The notes: generated by a model not told the origin, from the letters alone. DNA of 64,000 nucleotides from Deltaproteobacteria bacterium (GCA_018436855.1 JAHDKO010000135.1:22929-86928); one strand, 5' to 3'; shown: positions 4,753 through 64,000, numbered from the stretch's first letter. A program made the numbers and translations.

Positions 4753-4783
4753 AGCACGCCAGTTTTCAGGAAGAATCTGGCGC

Positions 4784-5422: not shown

Positions 5423-5437
5423 CCCTTTAATAAAATT

Positions 5438-25507: not shown

Positions 25508-25545
25508 AATATCGGGGACGGGTTCACATTTCACCTTTCCCCTGA
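25508..25545 (+). repeat. ~38-bp repeat element A, copy 2 (upstream AT-rich region of giant gene)
   Basis: See copy 1. Same orientation. Confidence 0.7.
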
Positions 25546-26228: not shown

Positions 26229-26233
26229 GGAGG
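26229..26233 (+). promoter_or_regulatory. Ribosome-binding site (GGAGG) of giant gene
   Basis: GGAGG, then 10 nt, then ATG at 26244. Frame 0 opens after a TAA at 26202-26204. Confidence 0.6.
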
Positions 26234-26243
26234 ATCTCAGCTG

Positions 26244-26336
26244 ATGGATATGGGGAGAAATGTCGGTACCACGGTTGTACGATTTTTTCTTTCTGTTCTT
26301 TTATTTGTCATCACAACAGTGGGCACGGCACAGGCC
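26244..26336 (+). other. Sec signal peptide of giant protein
   Basis: Basic n-region (R), hydrophobic core [17 protein letters not shown] cleavage motif. Confidence 0.6.
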
Positions 26337-44300: not shown

Positions 44301-47300
44301 ATATCCGACCCGAGCAGGCCGCTCATCCTTGCCGGCATCGGAACCCCGGGCCACCGGGCAATGGACGTGGCCGTGAACGAGGTGGAAAGGGTCGTGGCCC
44401 TTGCTGCCGCCAATGACCTGGGGACCGGTTATGTCAGGTTCTTTGCCCTCGACGGCGAATCGTTCGGACCGGCCTCCGGGTATCAGACCATCTCTTTCGA
44501 TCAGGACCCCGCCGCTCCGGATGCGCTATTGGGCATGCCCGTGGATATCCAGTGGTTCCAGAACCGGCTGTACGTGCTCTACCTGAAAAAGATCGGCTTG
44601 GCATACAGCCTCCACCTCGCCGTGTTCGAATCCTTCGGCGATCAGCCCTCCTATACAACAGACCCGGTCGACATCCCTGCATCGGACACCCCGGCCGACT
44701 ATTCGCTCATGGTCAACCAGGGTCAGATCGGCATCTCCACACCGGAGAGCTATTCTATCGTGGAGCCCGGCGCCCAGGGCGGCTATGACATCGTCTATTG
44801 GCAGGCCCAGGGCCGTGGCACCGAGCTCTCCGTCTTCGGCGGCTCCCTGCTGATCGCGGACGCAGACGGCCTCCATGTCAATCCCGGCACCCGCCTGGTG
44901 GTGAGCGGCTGCTTCCCGAGCCCGGGGAGCCGTCTGTCCCGGCAGGACCGGATCCGGGTACGGCTCAACAACCTGATCAACACCTCGCCCGGGCACGTGG
45001 CATTGGCGGTGTCCCTGTCCACGCAGGACGGATCGACCGTTTCGCAGGACAATTATCAGATCGAGGCCGTCAACAGCATGCACGGCAGCACCATCGAGGT
45101 CTCCTTCACAGAACAGTTCGTCTACCAGGGCAGGCTTGCCTTCGCGCTCTCGACCGGTCTCACGGACATTCACGGACACGCGCTCCATGCGCCCCTGGAG
45201 GTCGAGTACAGCTATACCTCCGCTGACCGTCCGCACATCGACGCGGTCAAGAAGCTCTCGGGCGCCGACGCGCTCGACGTGCACTGCTTCCATGCCGACG
45301 GGACCGAGCAGGTGCTCGTCGAGGGCAGCGGGTTCGGCGACAACCTCGGCAGCATCTCGATACGCATCGGCCACACCCAGGTGATGGCGTCGGCCGTCAG
45401 CCACCTGGAAGACTCCCGCCTGATCTTCACCCTGCCCGATCTGCACGCGGGCGGCGCCACCCTCACCCTGCCGGTGGAGGTCATACACAACGACACCTCG
45501 CTCGGAGACATTCTCTACGGCGCGCTGCTGATCGTTCCCCGGATCGAGATCGACGACATCCGGCCTACAACCGGACCGCCCCAGGGAGGCAATTACGTGG
45601 ACATCTATGGCCGCGGCTTCGGGCACTCGAACATCGTCCGGTTCGGCGCGGCACGCGCAGGCGACCTCACCGTATTCAGCAGCGACCACATCCGGGTGCG
45701 TGTGCCGGCAGGGAGCTTCGGTCCGGCATCCGTGAGCGTCGAAAGCACGCTTTTCCCGGACGAGCTGAACCTCTCGCCCGTGGAATACTTCTATTCCGGC
45801 AAAGAGACGGGAAGCGTAAACCTCGCCACCGACAACCCCGCCCCCGTTTCTGCCGTTGCCGTCAGGGACCAGCTGCTCTATACCCTGACCGGAGGCCACT
45901 TCGACGTGCTGGACGAGCAGGGCAGGGTCACCAGGCGCCTGGCATCGAACACGGCCCGGCTCGTCCTGAGCGATGTGTCCGACCCGGTGCATCCGGTTAT
46001 CCTTGAGAAGGAGTTCCTGGGCGGCCTCAAACCATACCACTTCGAGGTGGAGTGCGGCCTGAGCCCGGACGGTTTCGTGGCACTGGCGCGGGAGGGAAGC
46101 AACCTCTTCGTTGCCGGAGGCCGCAAGGTCTACCATTTCGACATCACCATGCCGGCAGACCCGTGGCTCGTGAACAGCCTCACCCTGAACGGGAATATCA
46201 GCGACATCGTCCTCCATGGCGATCTGCTCTATGCAGCGGGCGCGGCAGGCATCGATATCTACCGGGTCATCCCCGACCAGCGCCTGACCCACCTGCACCG
46301 GGTGAGCACGGCATCCATCGGCGGGGCACCGGGAAGGATCACGCTCGAGGGCTCGAGCCTGTGGGCCGTGGTGCCTGCAGAGGGCCTGGTCGCGGAGATC
46401 GATCTCATGGGAGGCGACTACCGGATTCTCAGGAGCTTCCCGGCCATGGACACTGCAGCCGCACCCTTTACGCCCGAGGACATCATCGTCTACGCCGGCC
46501 TGGTGCTCGTCTCCAGCGGAGACCGCGGCACGGTCCAGCTCTTCGTGCTCGACAGCGATACCGGCGCAACCCCGGCAGCCGACCTGAAGCTCGCCTATCT
46601 GATCAAAAACGGAACGGTCTTTGCCGGGCAGATGGAGCTCATCGGCCAGACCCTCTACGTCGCGGCAGGCCAGGGAGACGTGCAGGTGTTCGACCTCTCG
46701 GCCTGGCTGGACGGCAACTACCTGGGTGAGACCCCGCTCGTCGACTACTTCGCGGTCACGGGTGACGTGAAGACCATCGCCTTCTCTCCCGATGCGATCT
46801 ATGCCGGGACCGCGTTCGCCTACGTGGACGGCGAGCCCCGGGAAAACCCCATCACAGGCACGGAGACCGCCAACACCATCGGCGGCGGGCTGAACACGAT
46901 CCTGAACGACAAGCTCCTGATCATCGGCCAGAAGCCGCTGGCGGGCGGAGCCCTGCCGGCCGGCGATCCCATCGAGATCCGGTTCAACCGCATCCTGGAT
47001 CACGCCCAGATCGCAGGCGGCGGGTCTATCGTCGAGGTGACGCTCGACGGCGCACCCGTTGCGGGATTTGTCAGCCAGCGGGTGAACAACGACGGCTCCT
47101 GCCTGATGTTCCGCCCCCTGAACCCCCTGGAGGCGAACAAGCGCCACCGTCTCGTTCTCTCACCTGAGATCCGGGATATTCACGGCAACACCATTGCCGG
47201 CCAGTACTCGTTTTTCTTTGTGGCCGCAGACGGGGTGCAGCCGCAGATAGACTCTGTCGAACCGCCCTACGGAACCTGGCGCGGCTGTGACACCGTGGTC

Positions 47301-50300
47301 GTCCGCGGCAGCGGGTTTGACGAAAACACGCAGATTCAGGTGGGCTCCACGGTGGTCGGCGCCTCCGACATCATCAGCATCCGCGACGACGAGATCGTGT
47401 TCAGGCTGCCAGCGCTCACAGAGGCCCCCGGCGCAAACAGGCCCGTGGGCATCTCGGTGAGCAACGGGGTTTTGTCCGATGTCAGGGCAGGGGCCTTCAC
47501 CTACATCACCGACGCCTCCATCAGCTCGATCGGCTCATACAGCAGGGAGACCGGCCTGTTCAACCCCGCGGTCAAGACCTTCTTCTATAACGCGGGCGAA
47601 CACATCGGAATCCGGGGCCAGGGCATCGGCCCCATGACCAGGGTGTGGATCAACGGCATCGAGGCCAGGAACGTCCGCATCGAGAGCTCGGACCTCATCA
47701 GCCTGCAGGTTCCGGACGACACGGTCGGCACGCTGACCGTGGAGGTCGGAAACGGCGGCTATTCGGAGGGCACCTCGGCCTACAGCGGTCTTCGGGTCGT
47801 GTTCGAGTCCATGAGGCAGCTCTCGGGAGTGAGCTGCATTCAGCGCCAGGGCGACCTGCTCCTCACGGCGGGCGGCCGCGAGGCGAGGCTGTACAGCCTT
47901 CGGGACAGCAGTGTTCCCGTGCTGCTCGCCAAGATGGCCGTCTCCGGCAACGTCCTGAAGACGGCCCTGACCGGGGCTCACGTGGCGGTGCTGCACGGCG
48001 CGCAGAAGGACATCGATGTCTTCGACATCACCAATATCTACGACCCTCGGCTCATCAACCGCTTCAAGAACGTGAACTCGGAGCGCAGCTTCACGGACAT
48101 CCGGCTGCTCGATTCCCACCTCTATGCCCTGGCCGGCGGTATGCTGTACTACGGCAATGTCCGGAGCAGCGACCTGAGCGCGCTCGAGCTCAGGCAGACC
48201 GAGGACCTGGTAGATTTCGACGTCAGGCAGGGCGGGCTGTACCTCCTGTATGCCGACCAGATAGAGCTGAGGAACCAGTATCGTCCCGAGGTGCTCCTGA
48301 ACACGTACACGCACCTGATGCTCGACCCCGAGGGCATCGACCTCATCGAGACGGGCGCCATTGTCACCGGCGGAATGGACTACTGGCTGGTGGACACCAC
48401 GGCCCTGGAAAACTTCCACCCGAACCGCCTCATCGGCCACCGCTTCACCGGCGTATGCGACCGGGTCGTGCAGAACGGCGAGATCGCTGCCATCGCCGGC
48501 AACGGGCGCATCCGCCTGTACGACACCGGTATCGCCTCCGAGGGCGAGCTGTCCCACCGTGAGCTTGCCGAGGTATATAACCAACGGCAGAACCAGACGG
48601 TGCAGTGGCTGCACTTTTCCGGCGATCTGCTGGAGTGGGTCTCGGGTGGTGAGTACTTTAATGCCCGCATCCCGATTCCCAACGTGTGGAAGGCCGAGCC
48701 CTCATGGATCACCAACCCGGACGAGACGATCCGCGTGTCGGTGACCGGAGATTCCGCTGCCTGGCGGGATGTGTCGTGCAGGGTTTCCTCGTTCTACGAT
48801 CAGGCCGGGTCTGTCTCGGGATCGACGATCCTCGAGGGAAAAAGGCTGACCTTCCTGCCCTCGGCAGGTCTGTTCCAGGTCAACGACCTCTACGACGTGG
48901 TTCTGCTGCAGCAGCCGCGCGAGACCGTGAAGGGCGCTGCGGTACAGGTGGACCTGCCCTGGCGGATCGGGTCTGCGGCCGCCTTCGGGCTCCTTCCCAT
49001 CGAGCTCGGGCATATCACGCCCGCAAGCGTGATCGAAGGCGTGCACAACAGCTATACCGTCACCGGGGCAAACCTCGGCCAGGCATCCGAGGTGAGGCTC
49101 GGAGATCTCATCCTGTATCCGGGTGATTTCACGGTGAACGATTCGGGCACCGAGCTGACCTTTGCCGGTACCATGCCGGGGTCGGGCCTGTATTCCCTGT
49201 CGGTCATGCAGGAAGACCAGGCGGACGTGCTTGCCGCCGCGGTTCTTGCCATCGATGCCCTGGCGATCCATTCCGTGAGCTCGGACCACCCGCAGTCGTC
49301 CGCGGTGGTGAGCGAACAGGGCGGAGACATGGTGACCGTGCTCGGAGAGGGCATGACCCCGGACATATCCGTTCACTGGTATCCATCGGGACAGGGCATG
49401 CAGCCCTCCAGGACCAACACCGTGCCGTTCGCGCTCATAAGCGGCGGACTGACCTTCACCACCTCGGAGATGACAAAAGGCCTCGACTACCAGGTGGTGA
49501 TCGTAAAGAGCTCCACGGGCGAGTGCGCCGATGCGGGCGAGAGCAGGCTCCTGACCGTCATCGACGACAGGGCGCCCACCATATGCGTTGCCCAGCCGCT
49601 CGGCCGCCTCCAGCCGCTCATACTGGAGGCCGATGAGCCGATCCGCGCCGGGGCCGACCGGTCGTTTGCCGTGATCAAGCAATTCCGCGATTATTCGGAC
49701 ACACCTGATCAGGACATCTCGGGCCGTTTCGACACGCTCCTGAGCACGGGCAACCGGCTCGTCCTGAGACTTGCCTCGGGTCAGGTGCTCGAGCCCAATG
49801 CGGTGTACACCGTCACGATCAGCGATCTGCAGGACCTGGCCGGGAACACGGCCAACAGCATCAACGGCATCCAGGCAGGCACCATGACCCATGTGCTGCG
49901 CGCCGAGGACCTGCTCGCCCCCCGGCAGGATTCGATCCGGTTCGTGATCGCGGCAACGGACGAGCCCGTCCAGGACGTCACGGTCCTGAAACGGGGAAAG
50001 AGCTACACCTTTGCCGTCTCGGCAATCGACAACTACGTGGAGGCCGATGAACTGTCCTACTCGTACCGCTATTCGCTCGATGGCGGCGTCTCCTATATCA
50101 CGAACTGGATAAGCCTCAAGAATACGGATGGCCGTGCGGTCTTCTCCATCGATATAACCGACACGTTCCAGAGGCTCGGGGTCATGGTCCGGGCAAGCGA
50201 CGGCAGGAACACGAGCGACAGATGCTTCGAGGCCACCGTGACCGACCCGCAGATCGTTCTGTCCGCAGACCCGCCCGGGTTCGTCACCACACCCGATCCG

Positions 50301-53300
50301 GTCGAGGAGCTCGACGACCTGACGCTCACGTTCAATCTGACCGGCGACATCGACGTCATCGATTCGGCCCGGATCAGGGTCTTCGAGGGCGGCCAGTGGA
50401 GGCAGATCAGCCCGGTCAGCGTGGTCCGGACAACGGGAATGGCGACCCTGAGCATGGAGCTGGGCTATCTCTGCGATGTACCCGGCTACAACGGGGAGAG
50501 CTCCCTGGAAATACCCGTTGTCCTGAGCGTGGGCTACGACGCTGTGGTCGACTTTGCACGCTTCGAGAGGCAGTTCACCCTGTATAAAGACTTCACCCCG
50601 CCCGATCTCAGGATCGTCTCGCCCAAGGACGGCGATTACGTACCCAGGGGCCGGCAGGTCGAGATGATCCTCCAGTCGTTCGACCGCTACGGGATCGACC
50701 GGGTGGAGGTGTGCCTCGACAGCTCCTCGCCCGGGATCTTCGACGATCCACTGGCGTGCGGCGCCCTGGCGGACCCGACCGTGTACCGGTTCACGGTGCC
50801 TGAGGATGCGGAAGAGCCCATCACCCTTGCCGCCCGCGCCTGGGACCTCAACGGGCTCGTGAGCGAGCCGCGCACCATCACCGTGCAGCCCTTCGCGCCG
50901 GGCGACGCTCTTCCCAAGGTCGCCATCCTCTCACCCGCCAACGGGGCATCGTTCCATGCCGGCGAAGAGGTCGGCTTCCGGCTCCTGATGGAGGATGTCT
51001 CGGAGTCGCGGCTGTATTTCGATATCGGCGGCATCCAGGACGATCCGGGCAACCCGCCCCCGAGAGCCATAACCCGCACGGAGGGAGAGCCCGCGGTGTT
51101 TACCCTGAACTCGGTGATCCCGGTGGTGCCCGAAGACTGCGTCGTGGTGGTGCGGCTCGAAGCGGTATCGGAAACCAACGAGCTCGTGAGCCAGTGCTAC
51201 CTGAACGTGTTTGCGGACGAGGGCATCGACGAGACGCCGGTGATCGACGTCTCCCCAGCCTCGCATGCGCTCGCCGGCACCGAGCTCCTGATCAACGCGG
51301 TCAAGCCCGAGGGCATGGACGATTACGATGCCGGGTCGTACCTGCACGTCGAAGAGATCGGGGTCCCGGGGACCACGGTCGACTATCCCATGGACAGCGG
51401 CCTGCACCGCTATCCCTTGAGCACAGCCACGAGCGCGGTGGCCATCGATGCCTTCCTGCACGACCGCTCCGGCCATGTGAAGCACGAAGCCAGGCAGGTG
51501 GGCAGGTATCCCTATTTCTCGGGAGACTGGACCGTCTGCCATCAGATCGGCGACAGCACCCGGAGGATAGGCTCCGTGGCCGCGGTCCCGGGTTATACCG
51601 GGGGGACTGTCTGGCCGGAGAACGATATCGTGGGCGGCTACCGTATCCGGAGCCTCTCCGGAACCATTCACGAGACGGCAACCGGCCGGGTGGAGTCCGT
51701 GTTCTTCAGCGGAACAGGGCTCGTCGCCCAGGTGGAGGACAGCGGGCAGCGGCATGTGCTGTTCCTGCGGCTCGTGCAGGGTGTGTTCGGCACTCCGTGG
51801 ACAGCCAAACTCAGCGGCGAGGTGGTCGGCGCATACGGCTCAGTGGTTTTCGTCCGCAACGGCGATCTCATCAGCGGCCTGTTTGCAACCGTGGACGGGT
51901 TCGTTCCGATCACGGGTCATGCCGTTGACGAGCCGATCATCTCATTGTCCCAGAGCGACCGGCGCATCTTCGTGCTCACCTCTTCGGGACTCCGGGTTCT
52001 GGAAATGACCGATATGCAGGCGATGCCCAAGATCGTACAACGCTCAACCCATGCGTTCGACGGGTATGAAGGCGTTGGTGTGTCCGGCGGCCGTCTCCTG
52101 CTCTGGCGGGCAGGAGAGGTGGACAGGTATGTCCTGGCCCACGACGGGAGCATCGGCGAACCCGACCGGAACATGCAGGCGGGCGGCACGGTCGAGCGTG
52201 TGGTAGAAGACGGCGAGCTCATGTGGATCTACACCTTGGACGAGCGTGTGGGCGATCACTGGCAGGCCTGGCTCGACGGCGAGCACGTGGCCAATCTCGG
52301 CGGCACGGGTGAAAGGATCGCCCTTGCCGCGGGGAGGATGTACCGCGTCGTGGAGAGCCCGGCCGGAGACAGCATCCAGTACCGGGAAATCGGTGTCACC
52401 GACCAGTCGCAGCCGTTGAACCTTGCCGCATATCCGCTCCCCACCGGCGTCCTGATCGCCGGCCCGAGCGATGACCCGTCCATGGGTCTGGAGCAGGTGT
52501 ATTTCACCGGGGAAGAGGGTACTCTCCTGCCGGCGGTATCCATGTGGTACACCGGGCAGTACGACGGGGTGTCCGGAGAGCAGGTGCCCCACGGCCGGGC
52601 ATGGTTCATCCGCCATGCACATACCGGAGCCCGGGTGACGGCCCATGCAATCGGCCACGGCGGTACACTGCGGGAGCAGATCATCGATACCCCGTTCGCT
52701 CCGCAGACCGGCACCATCGGCCTCACACCGGCAGACGGGTCCTGGATTGCCGCGGGCGCTCACGTTCCGCTTGCCGCGGAGATGGATCAGACCACGCTGA
52801 CAGCCGACTGCCTGCTCTCCGCAGGCAGCGACACCTCCCGCACCATTTCCGGCACGCACCATCTCTATCGCTGGCTGACCATGCCGGATTCCGGCAGCAT
52901 GGAGGTTTCGTGCTCCATAAATGCAGCCCCTGCCGCCGCAGCGGTCATCTCCGCCATCGACAACGACCCCACCCTGGCGGCGGTCACGATCGGATCGGTG
53001 GCGAACAACCAGTGCTTCCCCGAGGGTGAGGTCGTCAGCGCGACGTACCGGGTTCTGGTCCAGGAGGGCGCCCCGGAGCTGAATTACGTGGAGATAACGC
53101 TCGTCGACTATAACGGCAACGAAAAGGCGCGCCTGCACGCCGGGCAACCGGAAGGGGCATTTACCCTCAGGCTGCCCGACGTCCTGTCGCAGGAGCCCTG
53201 CGAGCTCAAGGTGCGGGCCTATTTCGGGCCGCAGTATCACTACAGCGAGAATGCCTGCAACATCAGGGTGACCCCCCGGGTGAGCATGCCTGTGCCGGTC

Positions 53301-56300
53301 ATCGACGGGCTGCCCGGCACGGTCTACCCGCAGACGCGGCTGTGCCTCGAACTCATGCAGCAGCTCCCGGGCGGCCAGGTTCAGGCGCTCGGGTCCGAGT
53401 TCGGCGCCTCGCTCAGGGTATTCCGGGGCGACGAGGCGGTCCCGGTTGCCTCTGCCGACCGTGCGGTGCTGAACATGGACGTGCCGGCGGATGCGGCGGC
53501 CCTGACTATTGTCGGGCAGATTCAGGATGCATCCGGGAACTCCCGCGAAACCAGGCAGCGGATCCTGGTCATCGACCACCTGCGGTGTGCCCCTGCGGCG
53601 CAGACACTCGCGTATGACGCCTTCCTGCCCGCAGTGGGCGGGTACTGGTATGCGAAGGGTCATGACCTTTCGAGCAGCACCGGCAGTAATCATGCCTTCG
53701 AGGCGCCGGTGACGGCACTCGCGCACCTGGGCAGCAACCTGCTCGTGGCACTTGAGGGAACGGGGCTCGTGATCGTGGACCCCGAGCAGGAGTTCCGGAT
53801 GCTCGGAAACAGAACCCTCTCCGCGAGGATCGAGCACCTGGCCGCCAATGAACAGCGTATCGTGGCGGCGACCCGGAATTCCCTGCTTCTCTACCGGGTG
53901 AGCGGCAATGACATGGAGTATTTCAGAACCCTGGCCCTGCACGACGAGATCCTGGATGTCAGGCCGTACGGTGATGCCTTCCTGGTGCTGACCTGTCACG
54001 AGCTGCGCATGATCGACGCCGGGGGGACCACCCTCCACGCCGCTCAGGGCAGCGAGTTCAGGGCCATGGCGGTACACGACAGGGAATTCTACGTGCTCGA
54101 TGCATACGGCGAGCTGGCAAAATACGGATCGGACCTCACCCGGCTGGCCTCGCTGAGCCGGGCCGGCGGAGAGCGGATGGTCGCCCTCCAGGGCTATCTG
54201 GCCCTGATGGACAGCATGTCGGGCATGATCCGGGTCGTGGATGTGGGCAGTCGTGGTCGTATGGAGCTTGTTGCCGCATGGCCCGTGGGTTTTGCGCCCT
54301 TCATAGCCGATGCGGCCGTATCATCCGGGATGATCTTCTCGGGCGATGCCCGGGGCACGATCGTCGAGGTCGCATACCCCGAGTCCGGCTTCGAGGTGCT
54401 CTTCGATGCAGAGACCGCAGGCAAGCCCACGCCCGGATACGTGCTCGATCTCGCCCTGTGCGACGGCATCGCCGTGAGTGCTGCGGACAACTACGGGGCT
54501 ATTGTCTACCGGCCTGACAGCCGGGGCGCATACTCCCAGCAGTCGTATCCTGCCACCGGATTTGCCGAGGCCGCGGGCAGAGCCGCCTGCGACAAGCAGC
54601 GCTGCTATGTGCTCCAGCCCAGGGAGAACCGCGTGCGCTTCTTCGACCCGGCAATACTCCAGGGAGGAGATCTCTTCGCCGGCCGGGCGTTTGTCGATCT
54701 CGCACTGACGAGTTCCCACGTCGTTGCCGCCGAGGGCGGCAGCCTGTACCGGGCGAGCCGTGCGGATCTTTCCGAGCAGCCCGCGATCGATGTTGCGGGG
54801 AGTGAGAACATTGTCCGGATCGCTGCAGGCGGATATCGGGTCGCGGCGGTGACCGACGCGAACAGCATTTATCTGGCCGACATGCAGACCGCCGGTGTCA
54901 GGGCCGTGGTGGAGGGCGAGGCCCAGCCCATAGGCCTTGTCGCCCTGAGCAACGACTACCTGTTCTACAGCCTGGGCACCGGCATTCGCCGGGTCAGAAT
55001 ACACGACGGCGCGGTTGTAGACGGCGGGCTGCAGGGTGCGCGGTACATCGCGGCCCTGGAATATGCCCAGGGTCTGCTGTGGTGCGCCTTCGAGCATGAC
55101 GACGGATACGGCGTGGCCGCTCTGGATCCCATGAATCTGAGCACGGTGGACGGCTCCATCGTCGATCTGGACACCGAGATCACGGCGCTGGCCGTCGAGA
55201 ACGACCGTCTGGCGGTCGGGCTGGGCAGCCAGGGCATACGGGTCTACCTGATGCCGCAGAGGCTGATGAGGGCCCAGGCATCTCCGGATACCCCGCTTGC
55301 CGGGGTCACCTTCCAGTGCACGGACCTCATGCGGGTGCAGATGCCGCAGTCACCGGGCGTGGCGGCGGTGCAGTACCTGATCAATGGCGAGACGGTCGCA
55401 ACCGGCAGCCATGCACCCTTCGCCGTCGACATCCCCCTGCCCGCGAACCTGCCCAACGGGCAGCCCTTTGTGCTCGACACGCGCCTGGAGTGTGTCTCCG
55501 GCGCGGTGATCGATGCCGAGCAGAGGCCATTGTTCCTCCATTCAAAAGGGCTTGCGGCCAATGACCTGAGGGTGGAGGTGCAGGTTTCCGAGCACAGTTG
55601 GGGACCTGCCCCTCTGGAGATCCGGGCCGGCATCGTCCATACCGACCATCCGATTTCACGGGTCGAGTATTACCTCTCCCAGAGCCCGATGGGACCCTAC
55701 CAGTTTATCGGCGAGCATTTCGGGCCCGAGTTTGTCATCTTCCGCTACTACGACGACAGCTACAGCGGATACTATGTCAAGGTGCGCGCCATCGATGTGT
55801 TCGGCAACGCGGTGGACTCGCTCCCGAAGCGGTTCTACCGGCACCAGGACAATGCAAACCCCACGGCCGGGTTTGCGGTGACCGGCCTTGCGGTCAAGGA
55901 CGGCGGCTCGCGCGTGGTGGTCGACACCGGCTACCGGGTGGCGGTCACGGTCGGCGACGCCGAGAGCGGGGTCAGGCAGGCCTTCCTGAAGAGCCGCGGC
56001 AGGATCGTCAAGGCGATCTTCGGCCAGGGCACCATCACCCTGGACGAAATCGCCGGGTCGCTGGGCACCCTCGTCTACGATGTCGAGGTGACCGACAACG
56101 CCGGCAACTGCTGCACTGCATCGCATGTCATCGAGGTGGTGAGCGACAGCAGCCCGGACCTTCAGATCGACAACTCTCCGGCCTCCATACGCGAGAGGAC
56201 GAGCTTCACGGTGAAATTCACCGCTGAAGACGACGTGAGCCTGGCGTTTGCCGAGATATCCTGGAACGGGTTCACCACGCACGTGGACCTCGGTTCCGCG

Positions 56301-59300
56301 GACGAGACCCGGACGGTGCAGATCTCCGATACCCGGAGCGAGCGTGTCGAGACCTCCTTGGAAGGCCAGCTGAGCATCCGGGTGGTGGACAGCATCGGCC
56401 AGGAGGCCGTCCGCTCGAGGCCGATCACCGTCAATCGCGACCAGTCGCCCGACCTTTCTTCCCTCGGCGTGACGCATCCCTTCCAGGCCTTCTTCGGCAG
56501 GGAGGCGCGGATCGTGCTCGAAGGCGTCAACAGGCTGGACGACAGCGACAGGTATAAACTCCAGATCATCGACACGAGCAGCGGCAGCCCTGCCGTCGTA
56601 TACGACAGCGCGCTTCAATCGTGGGGCAGCTCGTTTACGCGCAATCTCGCCATGCCGGCAGCCCAATCAGGCCTCACCCAGTACCGGTTTATCGTGGCCG
56701 CGGTGGACGAGCTCGGTCAGCGGGCCGAATCGGCTGAATATGCCATCGATCTGAGACAGGCGCCCAACCTGATCAGGTTCAGGGCCGCCAGTGAGCAGCA
56801 AAACCGGACAACGGTGCGGGTCGGCGAACAGCCCCAGTACCGCGTGGAGGTCCTGGACGCCGACGGCCGCCCTGTCGAAGATGTGGACGTGAGATGGCAG
56901 CTGGTGCCTCTCTCAGGCCAGGCCGGCACCATGGGGACAAGCGCAACCGACAGCCTCGGGTTTGCATTCCTGACCCTCAACACCTCCCGGACCGCCCAGA
57001 GCTACACCCTCCAGGCAGGCCTTGTCCTGATGCACGAGGTGGGGTCCGCCCGGCTGCCGGTCACCGTCATGCCCGGTGAAACCAGAAGGCTTGCATTCGA
57101 TTATCCACCCCAGGTGGCTGCCGGCGGGGCCTTCACCCTGGCCGTGCAGGCCTTTGATGCCTGCAACAACGAGGTCCATGAAGACGGCGCCACCACCTTC
57201 ACCCTGACCATGCCCGATGATGGGTTCCATTTCGTGCCTGCCGCCGGGGTGCAGATCGGACAGGTGTCCATGAACTCGGTCATGGTGGAACGGGCCGTGT
57301 GCACCCTGTCAGCAGGCCGGGCGGATATCGGCGTTATAGCCGCAACCTCGGCCGGCACCCGTGAGATCGGCGTAGGCGCGGGCGGCGGCATAACCGCTCC
57401 TTCGGTCCTGCCGGTCACGATCATTGCGGGCGTCCCGCAGAGCCTGGTCTTCCTGGACGAGAATCTCCAGGTCCAGCCTGCCGGTTCTCCTGCGCATTGC
57501 GGCATCAAGCAGGCGGCCCGGGTGCATCTTGCCCTGTTCGACCAGTACGGCAACCGGGTAACAAGTGCCGGAGCGGGCTGCCCGGTGAGCGTCGGTGCCA
57601 CCGGAAGCGCCCGCATCGACGGCCGGGAGTCTCCGGCAGAGGTCGTGCTGGTGCAGGGCATGGCGGAATTCCTTGTGCAGGACGACACCGTCGAGACCGT
57701 GACGCTGTCGATCCACAGCGTGGGTCAGCCGTTTGCAGGCATCGATACCTCGTCAGTGTTCCGGCTGGCGTTCGATCAGTCGCCGCCGCAGATCGTGCAG
57801 GCGGTCGGCGAGGCAGGCGTGAACACGGAGGTCCTGCATGCGAAGTTCGTCTATGACGAGCCCGTGGAGGCCAACACGCAAGGGCCTCTGGTCGAGCTGC
57901 TCCTGGATGAGAACGTCCTGGATGCGGAGGCTGCGATAGGCGAAGACTCCCAGACGGTCATCCTCGAGCCTGCTGAGGCAATGCAGCTCGGCACGGCCTA
58001 CCACTACAGCACCGGGAACTCGGTGCTCGTCGCGGCGGCAAGCGGAGAGGGCGTCATGCCGCAGGCCGGCGTGCTGGAAATGCCGGACTGCCTGGTAAAG
58101 GTGCCGCCCGTGCTCGCGGTCCTGGAAGGGCAGCTCATGACAGTCGGTTTCGCGTTGGCCCCGGGTGTGAGCTATTCCGGCATCACATCCGGCCGGTACT
58201 GCATCGGCACCGGTTCCGAAGGCGAGGATATCTGCGGCGGGTTCGACTGGGCATACAACCGGACCGTGCCGATCCCGGCATTCTCGCAGTACGGGCAGCC
58301 TCCTGTCCAGGACGGCGGCACCGTGGTGTTCGAGTTCAGCGGATACATGGGCGGACGCGAACTGCGGGTCGGCAACAGCCTGGCATTGCAGGTGTTCGTG
58401 GAGGGCCGCGACTTCGACGGAGACGGTCTGAACAACGAGCTGGAGATCGAGGTCGGCCTCGATCCCGCCCTGGCGGACAGCGACGGCGACGGCATCGAAG
58501 ACGGGCTCGACGACCTCGACGGCGACGGGCTGAGCAACCTGGCAGAGGTTGCCGCTGGTACAGATCTGCTCGTCTTCGATACGGACGGCGACGGTCTGGG
58601 GGACGGCGCAGAGGTCTTGACGCACGGTTCCGACCCGCTCAAGATCGATACGGACGGCGACGGTCTCTCCGACGGCGACGAGGTGAGCTCTATCCCGTAT
58701 TCCAGCCCGAACAAGGTCGACACGGACGATGACGGCATTCCCGACAACGTTGAGCGGCAGTATGGCCTGAACCCGTCCGACCCCGCAGATGCAGCGGCCG
58801 ACCTTGACGGTGATGGGCTGAGCAACCTGGAAGAGCTCCAGCTCGGCACTGCAATCAACCTCGCCGATACGGACGGCGACGGGCTGTCCGACGGCCAGGA
58901 GGTGAACGGGGCAACCCCGACCGATCCGCTGAAGCAAGACACCGATTCAGACGGCCTGCCGGATAACGAAGATTACGAGCCCGGTACGGCCGACAGCGTG
59001 CCGCCCCTTGTCGTTCTGGTCGAGCCAGAGGCGCAGAGCACATTCATCAAGGGCCAAACTATCAGGGTGCGTGCATTGGTCGAGGACCAGGGCCGCATCG
59101 AATATGTCCGGCTGAAGGTCGACGGGGTGCAGGTCAGGGAGACCAGTCCTGAGGGCAGTGTCCAACAGTACGGGTTCGAGTACACGATTACGCTGCCCGC
59201 AGACGCGGAGCAGGCAGTCATCGAGGTGCTGGCGCAAGACACGAACGAAAATATCGGGACCACGGGCGAGCATGTCTTCACGCTCATCGACGATCCCATG

Positions 59301-62300
59301 ACCGCGGTCATGGGCGTGGTGGCGGATGCGGACGGCATCGGGGTCGGAGGGGCAACGGTCAGCGCCCACGGCTTCGAGGCGCTGACGCAATCCAACGGCG
59401 TATTCGTCATCATGAATGTGCCCGTGCTGCTGGGCGACGTGCAGGTGACCGCCCGGGTGACCCGGGACGGCATCGACTACGTGGCCAGAAGCGGCATCCA
59501 CCCGCCGGTATGGGCCGGCACCACCGACGTGGGGACCCTGACCCTGCGCCGCGACAAGAGCAAGGTGGGCTACTACCATGCCACCTACGACCGGGGCCAG
59601 GACTACCAGCGCCTCATCATCGAGAGCTCGGGCATGAAGCCGGTGCTCGTCCAGACCCTTGCAACCTTCGACCTCTCGGAGATCGACATGCTCATGGTCG
59701 ACACCAACCATGCCCAGGGGAGCAACTACTATTACAGCAACCTGCAGAAGGTGTTCGATTTCGTGGCCGAGGGCGGTGCTCTGATCATCCACGAAACCGA
59801 TGCGTGCGGCACCGCCTACACGGCGGCGGACGACATCCCGGGCGCACCGGGGTCGCTGGTCGACTCCACGATAAACGGCAGGGCCTGCCCGTGGTACCGG
59901 TTCAATGCCATAGGAGACGGGCCGGCAGGGCAGTTTGATCAGACACCACACGCAAGCGGACTCGCCACCGGTCACTTTGACCGCACGTCGCTCGGCATGG
60001 ACGTGACCCCGTGGGTCTATGCGAACGACCCCATGGACGGACAGGTTCTTTCCATCAGCTATCCGTGGGGCCAGGGGCTGGTATACGTCTCCACCATCCG
60101 GATCGAGGTCCTGATCCAGGAAGTCTTCCACACCATCTATGCGCCCAACGCTCTGAACGCCATGCACAGGCTCATGCAGCCCGACACCGATTTCGACGGC
60201 CTGGACGATTTCACCGAGTTCGATCTGGGCACGTCTTCGACCAATCAGGACACGGACGGCGACGGGCTGAGCGACCGGTTCGAGGTCAGGTACGGGTTCG
60301 ATCCTCTGCTCGCCTGCGGAGAGGCTGAACTCGACAGCGACGGAGACGGCCTGACCAACGTGCAGGAGCAGGCCGCAGGCACCCATCCGCACAGGGAAGA
60401 CAGCGATGGTGACGGCCTCTCCGATCTGCTGGAGATCGAGTTCACCTCTGACCCGCTCTTCATCGACACCGACTTCGACGGCCTGATCGACAGCAGGGAG
60501 TACGGTTATTATGCGGATCCGCATGTGGCGGACACGGACGGCGACGGGTTGAGCGATTACGACGAGGTCATGGTTTACTACTCCCATCCCGGATCCCTGG
60601 ACGGCGACCGTGACGGCATGTCCGACGCGTTCGAGGTCGAGCAGGGCATGAATCCGGGCCTGGGGTTCGACGCATACTGTGACGATGACAACGACGGCAT
60701 ATCCAACCGGGAGGAGCTGCTGGTCCACGGCACCGACTATCAGGAGCCCGACAGCGACTTCGACGGTCTCGACGACTCACAGGAACTGGCCCTGGGCTAT
60801 GATCCGAACAACCCTGACTGCGACGACGACGGGCTCCCCGACGGTTACGACTACGAGCCCATGGTCGCCGATCTGACCGCCCCGGTGGTCTCCCTGCTCA
60901 CGCCCGAACCCGGCTCCGATCTGGTCAGTGGAGGACAGGTGCGCCTGTCGGTCGAGATCGTGGAGCAGGGAAAGATAGGCGAGGCGGTGTTCACGGTCAA
61001 CGGTATTGAAACACGCCTGACGCAGGCCCCGTACAGCATTATCGCCCAGGTGCCGGATGGCGTGGGCACTCTCTCCATCGAGGTGTGGGCGACCGATTCC
61101 AATAATAACACCGGGTCCACAGGCACCATGGTGTTCAGCATCATCGACGACACCCTGATGACAATCACGGGCCGGGTGGTGAACGAGCTCGGCAACGGTG
61201 TGGCAAGCGCCACGGTGACCACGGCAGGCGTGACGGCCCAATCGGACCAGAGCGGATACTTCGTGCTCGACCAGGTGCCGACCACCGAGGCGGAGCTTAA
61301 GGTCAGCGCCTCGGCGCTCTTCGGCGCCCAGGAGGTTTCCGGTGTGAGTGAACCGTTTGTGCCGAGGCACGGGGAAATGATCGATGCCGGAGAGATTCTG
61401 ATATCCTGTGAACTTTATGTCCCTTATACAGGTCTCATACCAGAGGCAGACCTTGCGTACGATGGAGAGACTGTCATTGAATACCTGTACAACCTGTATG
61501 ACGGGAGTGGTTATCTCTGGGATATACACCGTCAGTACGGCTATATCTACGATGGTACAAGCGATGCATTCGACAGTGGATATCGTCTCTCAGTAAACAA
61601 CCAGGATTATATAGCGGATTACCGGATAGCGGTGAAAACGCGCATGAACGGGCGTGAGCTTACCTTCATGCCCCGGATGTTCGGTGATTTTCAGGTCCAT
61701 CGCAAGATATATGTACCTGGGGACAAGCAGTATGCGCGCTTCATGGAGGTGATCGAGAATACCTCTGATGTTGAACAGAGCATATCGATAAGGCTTCAAT
61801 CATCTATCGAGGGCTACGTCCGGTACACATCATCGGGAGATACCAGTCTCACTGCATCGGATGGATATGTGGTAACCGACGACAACTATGCGACATACGG
61901 AGATCCTTCGGTTGCCCATATATTCAGAGGACCCGATGGTGGTCGCGTAGGCCAGTACAACCCATACTTTACCGGCAGCTATGGGAGTATATACATCAAC
62001 TATTCGCTCACAGTGCCTGCTGGATGCCGTGCCATAATCCTCCACTATTCACTCCAGGATTTCAGCCGTTACACCGCGAATGCCCTTGCCCAGGACATAT
62101 ATTCATCCGCCGGACGGAGTGATCTGATCGAGGGCCTCACCCGTGAAGAATTCATGGATGTGGCAAACTATTCCTTCCTGAAGGACAGCGATGGAGACGG
62201 TCTGGCCGATTACGAAGAGGTGCTTCTGGGACTGGATCCCGCCAGTATCGATACAGACGGCGACGGCCTCACGGATGGATTCGAGCATAGATACGGTTTC

Positions 62301-64000
62301 GATGCCCTCGGCACTGACGAGTCGGCCCTAGACCCGGACACGGATGGTCTGACCAACCTCGAGGAGCAGGCCGCCGGAACCGATCCGTTTGCAGAAGACA
62401 CCGACGGAGACAGCCTGAGCGATTATGACGAGGTCATGACCCACGGCTCGAACCCCTTACTGGTTGACTCCGACGGCGATGGCCTGCGTGACGATCGGGA
62501 GATCGCCATTGGCACGGGTGCGATGGATGAGGATTCCGATGGCGACGGTCTGAGCGACGGTGATGAGGTGAACATTTATGGCACTGATCCTCTTCTGGTC
62601 GACTCTGATAACGACGGCATGGATGACATGTTCGAGGTGGAATACGATCTTCTGAATGCCGACCCGGACGGAGACGAGGACGCAGACGGCCTTACCAACC
62701 TCCAGGAAGCGAGTCTTGGCACCGATCCCAGGAACCCGGATACCGACGACGATTACCTCAAGGATGGCTGGGAGGTTAATAGCTATCAGACCGATCCTTT
62801 TGAAAGAGACAGCGATGGCTCCGGGCGATGGGACATCGACGAGTTGTTCATGGATTATTCAGATCCGAACCTTGCAGGCGACGATCTTGCCAAGGACGAC
62901 ATCAGCACCACCCTTGTGGATGAAGACGGCCGATCGTGGTTCTTCAGTTACGGGCTTCTCGAATATGCCTGCAGCGGTTCGTACACGACTTTTGAAAACA
63001 GTCTCGCGCTGTACGTGAACGGACAGAAGTATTCGACTGACTATTGGTATACCGATTATGGCCGACTAGACAGGCGCGAACTGGTTCTCGATACAAGAAC
63101 GCTGGGCAACCTGGCCGTCGGCAGGAGAGCCTTTGTGCCGGCTGCGGGAGGCGCCTTTGTCAGGTGCCTCGACATCATCACCAATCCGACCGGGGTGTCC
63201 CAGGAGGTTTCCGTCCGGCTGAAATCCTCGATCGGGGAGTATGACGAGGCAGTGGAGCCGAATGTTCTGACCAGCAGCGGCGGCGACTCATATAATCCCG
63301 GAGATCTCTACGCCGTCTTCCAGGACCCCGTGAACATCAACCGGCCTATCGGTGCACACCTGTTTGCCGGCCCCAACGCCGAAGTGCAGCCTGATGCCTC
63401 ATCAGGAATTACGAGCGGCGAGAGAGACTGGCATGTTGACTACACCTTCACCATACCCCCGGGAGAGCAACGCATGCTTGTGTACTTCCTCAGCCAGGAA
63501 GGCAGTGTGAGCAATGCGGTCGACACCATGGAGTGGCTCCTGAACATGCCCGAGATCGCCTTGCAGGGGCTCACCGAGGAAGAGAAAGCGTTGGTGGTCA
63601 ACCTGTTCCCCTATCCGGACAGCGACCGCGACGGAATGAGCGACGAGGACGAGCTGGTCTACGGGTGCGAACCCGACAACCCGGACAGCGACGGCGACGG
63701 CCTGCCCGACGGCTGTGACCATGACCCGCTCAACCCGGACAGCGACTTCCCGGCTGTCACCCTGGAGTCGCCCCAGGCGGGCCTGACGCTCTTCAAGGGC
63801 GAGACCGTGTGGATCCATGCACGGCCCCAGGACCAGGGCATGGTGCCCGCGATCGATCTCTGGGTAAACGGCGAGCTGTTCACCAGCCTCTCGTATCCGG
63901 ACTACTGGGTCGAGTACGTGGTGGACGATGCCCTGGACGCGCTGCAGATCGAGGCCATTGCCACGGACACTGCCGGCAACTCGGGCACCACGGGGATCCT
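26244..64000 (+). CDS. Giant secreted/cell-surface multidomain protein (partial; >12,585 aa within window): Ig-like array + LVIVD beta-propeller/IPT-TIG repeats + TSP3 calcium-binding modules
   Basis: My translation of frame 0 (positions divisible by 3) from the ATG at 26244 gives [31 protein letters not shown]|AVG, a signal peptide. Samples at 37140, 41538, 58410 and 63960 are all in the same frame with coherent domain sequence. The ORF track reports no complete frame-0 ORF anywhere after 25610, which is expected if the ORF runs off the window end. The opposite strand has only fragmented ORFs. Confidence 0.85.
27600..35400 (+). repeat. Tandem array of ~30 Ig-like (Big_7/Big_2-type) domains within giant gene
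   Basis: A recurring ~90-100-aa unit: P.V.I..P..G..V..G..L.L.A.A.DD.GI..V.FY.DG......D...PY.F, ending ...A.D..GN. Example: [52 protein letters not shown]...ATDTGGH. Protein-level repeats with diverged DNA. Boundaries approximate. Confidence 0.6.
35800..55250 (+). other. Zone of alternating LVIVD-type beta-propeller repeats and IPT/TIG domains within giant gene
   Basis: LVIVD-like blades ([19 protein letters not shown]..., [48 protein letters not shown]), around 35.9-36.5, 39.8-40.8, 42.7-43.0, 44.0-44.4, 45.8-46.7, 47.8-48.6 and 53.7-55.2 kb. IPT/TIG domains ([32 protein letters not shown]; [29 protein letters not shown]; [37 protein letters not shown]), around 37.1-37.7, 39.2-39.8, 41.5-41.8, 43.4-43.6, 45.2-45.8, 47.2-47.8 and 48.9-49.5 kb. 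Approximate coordinates. Confidence 0.6.
58410..58980 (+). repeat. Thrombospondin type-3-like calcium-binding repeat array 1 (DxDxDGxxD motifs)
   Basis: [112 protein letters not shown]. Visible in the DNA as recurring gacacggacggcgacgg. Confidence 0.8.
59290..59470 (+). other. CarboxypepD_reg-like domain (copy 1) in giant protein
   Basis: [39 protein letters not shown]...VQVTARV, a G.V.D..G.P..GATV..G....T...G.F.....P.G pattern. A second copy lies at ~61150-61330 ([40 protein letters not shown]). Confidence 0.5.
60182..60862 (+). repeat. TSP3-like calcium-binding repeat array 2
   Basis: [120 protein letters not shown]. Confidence 0.8.
62184..62850 (+). repeat. TSP3-like calcium-binding repeat array 3
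   Basis: [114 protein letters not shown]. Confidence 0.8.
63618..63745 (+). repeat. TSP3-like calcium-binding repeat array 4 (short)
   Basis: [43 protein letters not shown]. Confidence 0.7.

What the first reader, a model, noticed from the sequence alone, without database searches (positions are those of the whole stretch)
58410..63745. Three-fold repeated C-terminal module: TSP3 Ca-binding array - Ig - CarboxypepD_reg-like - unknown beta domain
Four arrays of DxDxDG thrombospondin-type-3-like calcium-binding repeats (58410-58980, 60182-60862, 62184-62850, 63618-63745) each precede a Big_7-like Ig domain. Two of the Ig domains (~59.0-59.3 and ~60.85-61.15 kb) end in ...[18 protein letters not shown] / ...[17 protein letters not shown]. 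Copies 1 and 2 then have a CarboxypepD_reg-like domain. Copies 2 and 3 have an unknown ~230-aa domain with shared motifs ([29 protein letters not shown] vs [29 protein letters not shown]). Between arrays 1 and 2 sits a ThuA/class-I-glutamine-amidotransferase-like stretch (59.5-60.1 kb). The repeats are conserved at protein level with diverged DNA, so they look like ancient duplications rather than an assembly artefact.
Basis: partly seen in the sequence, partly recalled or inferred. Interest (0 to 1): 0.6.

Follow-up and report, generated by a model that had tools for sequence, protein, structure and literature searches.

The report
Repeated modules of a giant adhesin
This stretch is the far end of one enormous (about 13,800-residue) secreted bacterial surface protein, built from calcium-binding thrombospondin-type repeats alternating with Ig-like and other beta-sandwich domains; it is an ordinary kind of giant adhesin, but it contains a widespread ~240-residue domain that Pfam and NCBIfam do not model.

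Summary
The region 58410-63998 lies inside one stop-free frame (26244 to beyond 63998, at least 12,585 aa) that runs off the window. It has four Asp-rich TSP3_bac arrays (29 DxDx[DN]G motifs against 0.9 expected), three Big_7 Ig domains, two CarboxypepD_reg domains, two paralogous unknown domains (UA/UB, 29% identity, E=2e-22) and one singleton domain (X59).

Three corrections:
- The region is not the C-terminus. A 92%-identical ortholog continues for 1,237 more residues.
- Array 3 is followed directly by UB, not by an Ig domain.
- The true parse is M1 = TSP3-Ig-CPD-X59, then M2 and M3 = TSP3-Ig-CPD-U-TSP3-U. The window is cut inside M3.

An AlphaFold model of UA (pLDDT 90) is a beta-supersandwich (galactose-mutarotase-like fold). 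The family has no Pfam, NCBIfam or PDB-sequence match, yet it has 3,431 cluster representatives, mostly in giant proteins where it alternates with TSP3 arrays. X59 is weakly class-I-glutamine-amidotransferase-like in fold, with no conserved catalytic triad.

dN/dS of about 0.23 and diverged DNA exclude an artefact.

Best reading: this is the ligand-binding distal part of a Sec-exported, calcium-dependent giant adhesin from a relative of Ca. Phosphitivorax. It is a new member of a known kind, of moderate interest.

The parts
26244..63998 (+). Giant gene, cut by the window's end: 12,585 codons in the window and about 13,820 predicted in all. It carries Big_7, TIG, Big_5, LVIVD and DUF4625 domains upstream of the finding.
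   Evidence: Stop-free frame. ATG at 26244 with GGAGGA 8 nt upstream. Pfam scans. The ortholog L001 continues 1,237 aa further.
26244..26336 (+). Sec-type signal-peptide-like N-terminus, [31 protein letters not shown]|AV
   Evidence: Read by eye from the translation. No predictor was run.
58410..58988 (+). TSP3 array 1 (aa 10736-10928; 9 strict DxDx[DN]G motifs)
58989..59297 (+). Ig1, Big_7-type Ig domain (aa 10929-11031)
   Evidence: Pfam Big_7 best stretch; z=18-21 against Ig2 and Ig3
59298..59558 (+). CPD1, CarboxypepD_reg-like beta-sandwich (aa 11032-11118)
   Evidence: Pfam reports 2 stretches; z=9 against CPD2
59559..60170 (+). X59, a singleton ~204-aa domain. The fold is weakly class-I-GATase-like or flavodoxin-like. 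It is rare, found in only 3-4 other proteins or fragments.
   Evidence: No Pfam or NCBIfam match; homolog searches; model with pLDDT 61; Foldseek against PDB
60171..60872 (+). TSP3 array 2 (aa 11323-11556; 10 motifs)
60873..61157 (+). Ig2, Big_7-type Ig domain (aa 11557-11651)
61158..61400 (+). CPD2, CarboxypepD_reg domain (aa 11652-11732)
   Evidence: Pfam best stretch
61401..62174 (+). UA, first copy of the un-modelled U domain (beta-supersandwich; folded core about aa 11760-11990). It is the most variable domain between orthologs.
62175..62819 (+). TSP3 array 3 (aa 11991-12205; 8 strict motifs plus degenerate ones). It is followed directly by UB, with no Ig domain between.
62820..63608 (+). 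UB, second copy of the U domain (aa 12206-12468)
63609..63740 (+). TSP3 array 4 (aa 12469-12512; 2 motifs). This is the start of supermodule 3.
63741..63998 (+). Ig3, Big_7-type Ig domain, truncated by the window's end

Best explanation
The region is the distal, ligand-presenting part of a single giant (about 13,800 aa) extracellular protein of a Desulfobacterota bacterium closely related to Ca. Phosphitivorax. Shown: the protein has a signal-peptide-like N-terminus. A long run of Ig-like, TIG and LVIVD domains is followed by three duplicated supermodules. In these, Asp-rich TSP3_bac arrays (22-23-residue DxDxDGxxDxxE units) separate small beta-sandwich domains (Big_7 Ig, CarboxypepD_reg) and larger globular heads (X59 in module 1; two U domains each in modules 2 and 3). 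The ortholog ends with an fn3-containing tail. Inferred: each TSP3 unit chelates calcium, as in thrombospondin/COMP and as proposed for Myxococcus CglD, so the arrays would act as calcium-stiffened spacers that hold the heads apart. The U domain is a beta-supersandwich of the galactose-mutarotase-like fold, which in glycoside phosphorylases, hydrolases and lyases forms sugar-binding accessory domains. The several U copies would then give multivalent binding to a glycan, or possibly a peptide, on a surface, in a matrix or on a partner cell. The supermodules arose by ancient tandem duplication and are kept by purifying selection. The first U position (UA) varies far more between strains, as expected for a specificity-determining module.
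For: One frame and the gene start. Domain identities at or above Pfam cut-offs. Motif enrichment of 29 observed against 0.9 expected. Paralogy statistics. Orthologs in MAGs SM3-B3m and Phox-21 are collinear at 86-92% identity and reveal M1, M2, M3 and the fn3 tail. dN/dS is 0.08-0.43 per domain and 0.23 overall. The UA model has pLDDT 89.7 and pTM 0.86. Foldseek finds 98 PDB hits at E<=1e-3, led by Cgs, GH94, GH65, GH174, heparinase III, aldose epimerases and YidC P1, with TM 0.5-0.58. The U family has 3,431 representatives, typically 2-8 copies in proteins of 1-6.7 thousand aa. In the 151 proteins examined, 124 of 433 U copies are preceded, and 124 followed, by at least 2 DxDxDG motifs within 150 aa, and 71 of the 151 proteins carry at least 3 motifs. 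NCBIfam gives partial matches to the adhesins CglD and MtsD through the TSP3 part, and CglD is a calcium-dependent adhesin with a DxDxDG region. Two SurA/parvulin-type periplasmic chaperone genes lie directly downstream of the ortholog. UA shows 79% and 53% identity between orthologs against 83-98% for its flanks.
Against: No binding, calcium dependence or surface location has been shown for this protein or for any U-domain protein. The fold match is only at fold level (7-14% identity, TM below 0.6), and the same fold also serves non-sugar roles such as YidC P1. The signal peptide was judged by eye only. No anchoring or secretion signal was recognised at the ortholog's C-terminus. The CglD study reported that calcium did not change that protein's own conformational stability, so 'calcium-stiffened spacer' is an assumption.
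Confidence: 0.55

Rival explanations
1. The region is a purely structural scaffold or extender. The TSP3 arrays and the U, Ig and CPD domains would be beads on a string that set length or form a calcium-cross-linked extracellular matrix or S-layer-like network. Any specific ligand binding would lie elsewhere, for example in the LVIVD propeller region or the fn3 tail.
For: The architecture is highly repetitive, and [TSP3-U]n recurs in many relatives with no other recognisable domain, for example P0014, which is TSP3 plus U only. No ligand-binding motif was identified. The arrays are very acidic, with 22-30% Asp, which suits calcium bridging.
Against: The U family keeps invariant or near-invariant polar residues (R101, R113, N120, D154). 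The UA position is a divergence hot spot between strains while the spacer arrays stay 87-98% identical. That pattern fits a specificity module better than a passive bead.
Confidence: 0.22
2. The region is an enzymatic, degradative or predatory giant protein. U (supersandwich, as in GH, PL and phosphorylase enzymes) and X59 (GATase-like) would belong to catalytic units that attack polysaccharide or cell-wall material, as proposed for Omnitrophota giant proteins.
For: The closest structures to U are domains of carbohydrate-active enzymes. X59 resembles GH42 domain B and amidotransferases. The literature links giant TSP3 or dockerin proteins to cell-wall degradation.
Against: In those enzymes the supersandwich is an accessory domain beside a separate catalytic (alpha/alpha)6 or TIM barrel. 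No such catalytic domain is detected anywhere in the frame or in the ortholog tail. X59 has no invariant Cys or His, so no Cys-His-Glu triad. There is no glycoside hydrolase, lyase or peptidase Pfam hit.
Confidence: 0.1
3. The region is an artefact: a mis-assembled repeat region, or a pseudogene or non-coding open frame in GC-rich DNA.
For: Giant repetitive genes are prone to mis-assembly, and GC-rich DNA yields long spurious ORFs on other frames here.
Against: There are 12,598 codons without a stop. Independent MAG contigs are collinear at 86-92% identity over about 3,600 aa. dN/dS is about 0.23. Paralogous copies are only 29-35% identical with unalignable DNA. There are no long near-identical DNA repeats. 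Domains pass curated Pfam cut-offs.
Confidence: 0.01

Closest known systems
Myxococcus xanthus CglD (gliding-motility adhesin) and MtsD (cell-cell cohesion protein), which are bacterial TSP3/COMP-like DxDxDG proteins
   Same: Both have arrays of DxDxDG thrombospondin-type-3 repeats in a cell-surface adhesion protein. NCBIfam gives partial hits, 161 bits to CglD and 131 bits to MtsD. CglD function depends on calcium.
   Different: The scores are far below the equivalog cut-offs of 400 and 800 bits. CglD is a 1,130-aa lipoprotein with a VWA/integrin-like head and EGF-like disulfide modules. Here the protein is about 13,800 aa, has no VWA domain, almost no Cys in the arrays, and carries U, X59, Ig and CPD heads instead.
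Giant TSP3- or dockerin-repeat proteins of Omnitrophota and PVC bacteria ('Dockerin-type giant proteins', West-Roberts et al. 2023, bioRxiv 10.1101/2023.11.21.568195; 'tandem-repeat scaffolds', bioRxiv 10.64898/2026.06.07.730766)
   Same: These are very long predicted extracellular proteins in which calcium-binding TSP3 or dockerin-like segments alternate with unannotated ~200-aa beta domains of carbohydrate-binding-like fold.
   Different: The phylum differs (Desulfobacterota relatives). Their beta unit was reported as CBM35-like with flanking dockerin-like helices, while here it is a ~240-aa supersandwich. No dockerin or discoidin Pfam hit occurs here. Whether the two beta units are homologous was not tested.
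Galactose-mutarotase-like beta-supersandwich domains (N-domains of GH94 and GH65 phosphorylases, cyclic beta-1,2-glucan synthase, GH174 fucanase, heparinase III; aldose 1-epimerases; YidC P1)
   Same: The predicted fold of UA matches them, with Foldseek probability 1.0, E down to 1e-6 and TM 0.5-0.58.
   Different: Sequence identity is 7-14%. No sequence-family membership is detected in Pfam, NCBIfam or PDB sequences. The domain stands alone between TSP3 arrays rather than beside a catalytic domain.
RTX-type giant adhesins secreted by type I systems (MpIBP, LapA, SiiE, BapA) (from my own knowledge)
   Same: The overall logic is shared: a very long extender of Ig-like repeats, calcium dependence, and ligand-binding modules clustered towards the C-terminal end.
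   Different: There are no RTX nonapeptide repeats in the window protein or in the ortholog's C-terminus. The N-terminus looks like a Sec signal peptide. Calcium-binding would come from TSP3 arrays rather than from inter-Ig sites and RTX repeats.
Non-catalytic class-I-glutamine-amidotransferase-like domains (GH42 beta-galactosidase domain B, STM3548/STM1381, ThuA-like, IFT52 N-domain)
   Same: These are the best structural matches of the X59 model. Like them, X59 lacks a conserved catalytic triad.
   Different: The model is only moderate (pLDDT 61), with a 46-residue low-confidence insert. There is no sequence-profile match. The domain is extracellular and embedded in an adhesin.

Membership tests
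Bacterial TSP3 repeat (Pfam PF18884 TSP3_bac) | Match to the family HMM above the gathering score | tested here: met
   214.4 bits against a cut-off of 25, with 10 separate stretches
Bacterial TSP3 repeat (Pfam PF18884 TSP3_bac) | Tandem DxDxDGxxDxxE units with a period of about 22-23 residues | tested here: met
   29 motifs against 0.9 expected, modal spacing 22-24
Bacterial TSP3 repeat (Pfam PF18884 TSP3_bac) | Binds calcium | not testable with these tools
   Inferred from the motif and from thrombospondin/COMP and CglD
Eukaryotic thrombospondin type 3 repeat (PF02412 TSP_3) | HMM match and intra-repeat disulfide Cys pairs | tested here: not met
   No PF02412 hit in the window region. The arrays hold 0-3 Cys each.
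Big_7 bacterial Ig domain (PF17957) | HMM match above the gathering score | tested here: met
   58.2 bits against 24.1, in 3 stretches. The three copies are mutually similar, z=18-21.
CarboxypepD_reg-like domain (PF13620) | HMM match above the gathering score | tested here: met
   42.9 bits against 32.3, in 2 stretches. CPD1/CPD2 z=9.
Galactose-mutarotase-like beta-supersandwich (fold-level superfamily) | Supersandwich fold | tested here: met
Galactose-mutarotase-like beta-supersandwich (fold-level superfamily) | Sequence-profile membership in a described family | tested here: not met
   No Pfam or NCBIfam hit for UA or UB at E<=10 and E<=1. None for 58 family members. None in PDB sequences.
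Galactose-mutarotase-like beta-supersandwich (fold-level superfamily) | Carbohydrate bound in the concave sheet cleft | not testable with these tools
Class I glutamine amidotransferase / ThuA-like | Flavodoxin-like GATase fold | tested here: inconclusive
   X59 model pLDDT 60.9, pTM 0.68. Best hits are GH42 domain B, STM1381/STM3548, Pdx2 and PabA, with E 5e-4 to 2e-2 and TM 0.4-0.55.
Class I glutamine amidotransferase / ThuA-like | Conserved Cys-His-Glu catalytic triad | tested here: not met
   No invariant Cys or His among the four aligned homologs. A possible shifted C-G/S-G element lies in a segment with pLDDT below 50.
Class I glutamine amidotransferase / ThuA-like | HMM match to the ThuA or GATase Pfam families | tested here: not met
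   The only hit is Methyltransf_24 at 21.2 bits, below its 26.3 cut-off
CglD (NF033765) and MtsD (NF047639) equivalogs | Score above the NCBIfam equivalog cut-off | tested here: not met
   161 bits against 400, and 131 bits against 800. The matches cover only the TSP3 parts.
RTX / type I secreted giant adhesins | C-terminal RTX nonapeptide repeats (GGxGxD) and no N-terminal signal peptide | tested here: not met
   Zero nonapeptide motifs in the window protein and in the ortholog. No HemolysinCabind hit. The N-terminus looks like a signal peptide.

The most novel reading that the evidence does not exclude
The U domain would define a large, so far uncatalogued family of ligand-binding beta-supersandwich modules that evolved as a unit with calcium-binding TSP3 arrays ([TSP3-U]n). 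That would make it a distinct class of calcium-switched multivalent adhesin spread across many phyla. In the Phosphitivorax lineage, which lives in obligate syntrophy with a methanogen, the strain-variable UA head would be the determinant that recognises the partner's envelope glycans.
Probability: 0.2. Interest if true: 0.6.

Novelty: new member of a known kind. Interest (0 to 1): 0.35.

Why it matters
Giant repeat-rich surface proteins are common in uncultured bacteria and are mostly labelled only by their few recognisable repeats. This work shows that about 500 residues of 'unknown' sequence here belong to a real, confidently foldable domain family. The family has thousands of cluster representatives, no Pfam or NCBIfam model and no solved relative, and it recurs in alternation with TSP3 calcium-binding arrays. 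Defining it would improve annotation of many giant proteins and gives a concrete, testable candidate for a glycan-binding adhesion head. In the closest relatives, which are obligate syntrophs (Ca. Phosphitivorax), such an adhesin is a plausible mediator of partner or floc attachment. Otherwise the locus is an ordinary example of a modular adhesin grown by internal duplication.

Tried and rejected
- **Self-BLASTP of the tail** returned only the trivial diagonal. I replaced it with Smith-Waterman scores against shuffles.
- **Word-indexed homolog searches** were almost empty: 2 hits for UA/UB, none for X59, and 1 for the X59 profile. This reflects the prefilter, not rarity, at least for U, because the exhaustive HMMER search found 3,431.
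- **Weak hits rejected as spurious or merely compositional:**
  - Methyltransf_24 on X59: 21.2 bits, below the 26.3 cut-off.
  - CooC_C over CPD1: below cut-off.
  - DUF1297, FokI and GreAB-C on UA/UB: E above 0.1.
  - Lanmodulin and EF-hand PDB hits on array 2: E=0.015, Asp-rich loops only.
  - SlaB and OmpL47 NCBIfam hits: far below cut-off.
I re-ran it without that row, leaving only 4 sequences, hence the moderate model.
- **RTX/T1SS adhesin membership** was considered and rejected.
- **An assembly artefact** was considered and rejected.

Full report
**1. Where the finding sits**

The coordinates 58410-63745 are not a gene of their own. They lie inside one stop-free frame, 26205..63998 on the + strand, 12,598 codons long, that runs off the 3' end of the window.

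The likely start is the ATG at 26244, preceded 8 nt upstream by GGAGGA. The N-terminus, [31 protein letters not shown]|AV, looks like a Sec signal peptide (judged by eye, no predictor was run).

Upstream genes are ordinary chromosomal ones: RecQ, LepA, HemN-like, 2-oxoacid:ferredoxin oxidoreductase and an ABC substrate-binding protein. The rest of the giant protein carries many Big_7, TIG and Big_5 Ig-like domains, LVIVD repeats and DUF4625. The 1,635 residues just before array 1 give only sub-threshold Ig-like hits.

**2. Check of the observation**

- **TSP3 arrays.** All 29 DxDx[DN]G motifs of the 12,598-residue frame lie in four clusters, at nt 58410-58952, 60183-60830, 62184-62753 and 63618-63698. 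Shuffling gives 0.9 +/- 1.0 motifs (maximum 5). Spacing is mostly 22-24 residues. Asp is 22-30% in the arrays against 7.3% elsewhere.
- **Pfam.** All three named families pass their gathering cut-offs: TSP3_bac 214 bits (cut-off 25), Big_7 58 bits (24.1) and CarboxypepD_reg 43 bits (32.3).
- **Paralogy.** Smith-Waterman scores against 200 shuffles give Ig1/Ig2 z=21.5, Ig1/Ig3 z=18, Ig2/Ig3 z=18, CPD1/CPD2 z=9 and UA/UB z=31.6. X59 has no internal paralog. UA and UB share 29% identity over about 260 residues, E=2e-22.
- **DNA.** The copies are diverged at the DNA level. UA and UB DNA is essentially unalignable. Only the 41-88 nt TSP3 codon motif recurs, at 60-78% identity, and Tandem Repeats Finder reports nothing.

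One factual slip: array 3 abuts UB directly, and there is no room for an Ig domain between them.

**3. The region is not the C-terminus, and the module parse changes**

A scan of GTDB genomes found close relatives in two 'Deltaproteobacteria' MAGs: SM3-B3m (L001, L002) and Phox-21 (L003). Phox-21 is Ca. Phosphitivorax anaerolimi.

L001 is collinear with the window protein at 91.8% identity over 3,599 residues, and L003 at 86.2%. Both continue past the point where the window ends, L001 by 1,237 residues. The full protein is therefore about 13,820 aa.

Mapping local HMMs on the ortholog gives this architecture:

| Part | Domain order |
|---|---|
| M1 | TSP3(9) - Ig - CPD - X59 |
| M2 | TSP3(11) - Ig - CPD - U - TSP3(6) - U |
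| M3 | TSP3(2) - Ig - CPD - U - TSP3(7) - U |
| Tail | about 400 residues containing fn3, then the stop codon |

Window aa 11498-12467 (M2) matches the ortholog's M3 at 34% identity over 1,036 residues. The unit of duplication is thus a supermodule of about 970 residues. The window holds M1, M2 and the first 130 residues of M3. The 'three-fold' idea is right in spirit, but UA and UB are the two heads of M2, not of 'copies 2 and 3'.

**4. It is a real, selected coding sequence**

dN/dS against L001 and L003 is 0.08-0.43 per domain and about 0.23 overall. Together with the diverged paralog DNA and the independent MAG contigs, this excludes an assembly artefact or a spurious ORF.

**5. The unknown domain (U)**

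UA and UB match nothing in Pfam (E<=10), NCBIfam (E<=1) or PDB sequences. A 58-member family profile also finds nothing in PDB sequences. None of the 58 members hits any Pfam model other than the flanking TSP3_bac and CarboxypepD_reg.

The word-indexed search found only two fragments. One of them, P0001, has the same order, CPD followed by U. The exhaustive HMMER search tells a different story. It found 3,431 cluster representatives at E<=1e-3, 2,332 at E<=1e-10 and 594 at E<=1e-30. Nearly all of the top 150 are proteins of 1,000-6,700 residues with 2-8 copies each.

In the 151 retrieved proteins I located 433 U copies:
- 124 are preceded, and 124 followed, by at least two DxDxDG motifs within 150 residues.
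- 71 of the 151 proteins carry at least three such motifs.
- In proteins such as P0005, P0008 and P0014 the pattern is a strict [TSP3 array - U]n alternation with a period of about 380 residues.

Public names for these proteins refer only to flanking domains: 'carboxypeptidase regulatory-like...' (Thermoanaerobaculia), 'thrombospondin type 3 repeat-containing...' (Bradymonadia), 'Ig-like...' and 'hypothetical'.

The family consensus has strong motifs: RKvYVP, FaRYlE..NP, tSSGD, D.W.vTDD, dP...HVF.G, tVPAG....lMHF..Q and ivNF. In the 58-sequence alignment R101 and R113 are invariant, and G47, N120, D154 and N256 are nearly so (UA numbering).

An AlphaFold2 model of UA built with that alignment is confident: pLDDT 89.7, pTM 0.86, about 15 strands plus C-terminal helices. 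Foldseek against the PDB gives 98 matches at E<=1e-3. The leading ones are all beta-supersandwich, galactose-mutarotase-like domains, with TM 0.5-0.58 and 7-14% identity:
- cyclic beta-1,2-glucan synthase;
- GH94 cellobiose and laminaribiose phosphorylases;
- GH65;
- GH174 endo-fucanase;
- heparinase III;
- GH38;
- aldose-1-epimerase-like proteins;
- the YidC P1 periplasmic domain.

The fold assignment is a tool result. Carbohydrate binding is my inference from what this fold usually does.

**6. X59 (59559-60170)**

X59 has no Pfam or NCBIfam match, and the single-sequence search found no homologs. Among the retrieved giant proteins it recurs only in P0015 and P0084, plus one fragment, P0152, found with the profile. 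P0015 is a 41%-identical collinear homolog of the window protein.

The four-sequence model is moderate: pLDDT 60.9, pTM 0.68. The N-terminal beta-alpha-beta half is confident, and residues 97-142 have low confidence. Foldseek's best matches are GH42 beta-galactosidase domain B, STM1381/STM3548, Pdx2/YaaE, PabA and the IFT52 N-domain, plus flavodoxins for the N-terminal half (E 5e-4 to 2e-2, TM 0.4-0.55).

But no Cys or His is invariant among the homologs. I read X59 as a non-catalytic GATase-like domain, with low confidence.

**7. How it most likely works**

Shown:
- an exported-looking giant protein;
- a long Ig-like region;
- three duplicated supermodules of TSP3 arrays and beta-sandwich domains with larger heads;
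- purifying selection.

Inferred:
- The TSP3 arrays bind calcium. The DxDxDG motif does so in thrombospondin/COMP, and the same motif is linked to calcium-dependent adhesion in Myxococcus CglD. NCBIfam gives partial hits to CglD and MtsD.
- The arrays act as spacers.
- The multiple U heads give multivalent binding to a glycan or another surface ligand.

In the ortholog, two parvulin/SurA-type periplasmic chaperone genes follow the giant gene directly. That fits Sec export and periplasmic transit. There are no RTX nonapeptides, so this is not an RTX/T1SS adhesin.

The rivals are a purely structural scaffold, a degradative enzyme and an artefact. They are weighed in the dedicated sections of this report.

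**8. Comparison with what is known, and novelty**

TSP3_bac-rich giant proteins are an established class, for example in Omnitrophota and PVC lineages. West-Roberts et al. describe calcium-binding segments alternating with unannotated ~200-aa carbohydrate-binding-like beta domains. That layout is analogous, but homology with the U domain is untested.

As a protein, this is a new member of a known kind.

The part that is new for annotation is the U family: large, foldable, un-modelled, and coupled to TSP3 arrays. Interest is moderate (0.35).

**9. Limits**

- Model coordinates could not be inspected.
- The X59 alignment is shallow.
- The signal peptide was not formally predicted.
- No experimental data exist for any U-domain protein.

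Noticed in passing
window 61401-62174 (UA) against L001 aa 2999-3236 and L003 aa 2867-3118: UA is a divergence hot spot between orthologs. It shows 79% (L001) and 53% (L003) amino-acid identity and dS 0.54 and 2.4. Flanking domains show 83-98% identity and dS 0.07-0.6. The other U positions (U2-U4) are 83-96% conserved. L003's U1 is not derived from any other U copy in these proteins (54% identity at most). This suggests cassette replacement by recombination, or fast evolution of a specificity module.
   Followed up: partly
L002 (JAHDQN010000080.1, MAG SM3-B3m) and L003 (MPOS01000003.1, MAG Phox-21): The 4,964-codon partial ORFs of L002 and L003 are identical although they come from differently named MAGs. 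SM3-B3m also holds a second, 92%-identical version (L001). Either that MAG mixes two strains or the lineage has two paralogous giant genes.
   Followed up: no
L003 14934-16657 (+): Two PPIC-type PPIase / SurA-like periplasmic chaperone genes lie immediately downstream of the ortholog's giant gene. They may be a dedicated folding or export helper. The equivalent region lies beyond the window's end.
   Followed up: partly
window 59244-64000: GC and third-codon-position GC drop in the last ~5 kb of the giant gene (0.59 and 0.74, against 0.63-0.65 and 0.80-0.85 for the preceding 33 kb). This is the part holding X59, UA and UB.
   Followed up: no
window 2001-6000 and 24001-26000: These are low-GC islands (0.455-0.47) in a background of about 0.63 GC. 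The second one lies just upstream of the giant gene's start.
   Followed up: no
window about 40500-41200 (giant aa about 4770-5000): LVIVD repeats (69.6 bits) together with TIG and Big_5 domains in the middle of the giant protein. This may be a beta-propeller region and could be another ligand-binding part.
   Followed up: no
L005-L020 (Poseidoniales / MG-II archaea, Flavobacteriaceae, Planctomycetota and other MAGs): The genome scan also picked up short (about 30-residue), 46-69% identical matches to the TSP4 segment ([12 protein letters not shown]...) in many marine archaeal and bacterial MAGs. Nearly identical TSP3 units are therefore shared across domains of life.
   Followed up: no
P0017 (Bradymonadia), P0008, P0005: In other lineages U domains combine with quite different partners: left-handed beta-helix hexapeptide repeats (P0017), a VWA domain plus Big_7 (P0008), and glucodextranase domain B (P0005).
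   Followed up: no
method note: The word-indexed search of 5.8 billion clusters found 2 U-domain hits, while exhaustive HMMER on 1.84 billion representatives found 3,431. Neither the window's own giant protein nor its 86-92% identical orthologs appeared among the word-indexed hits.
   Followed up: no
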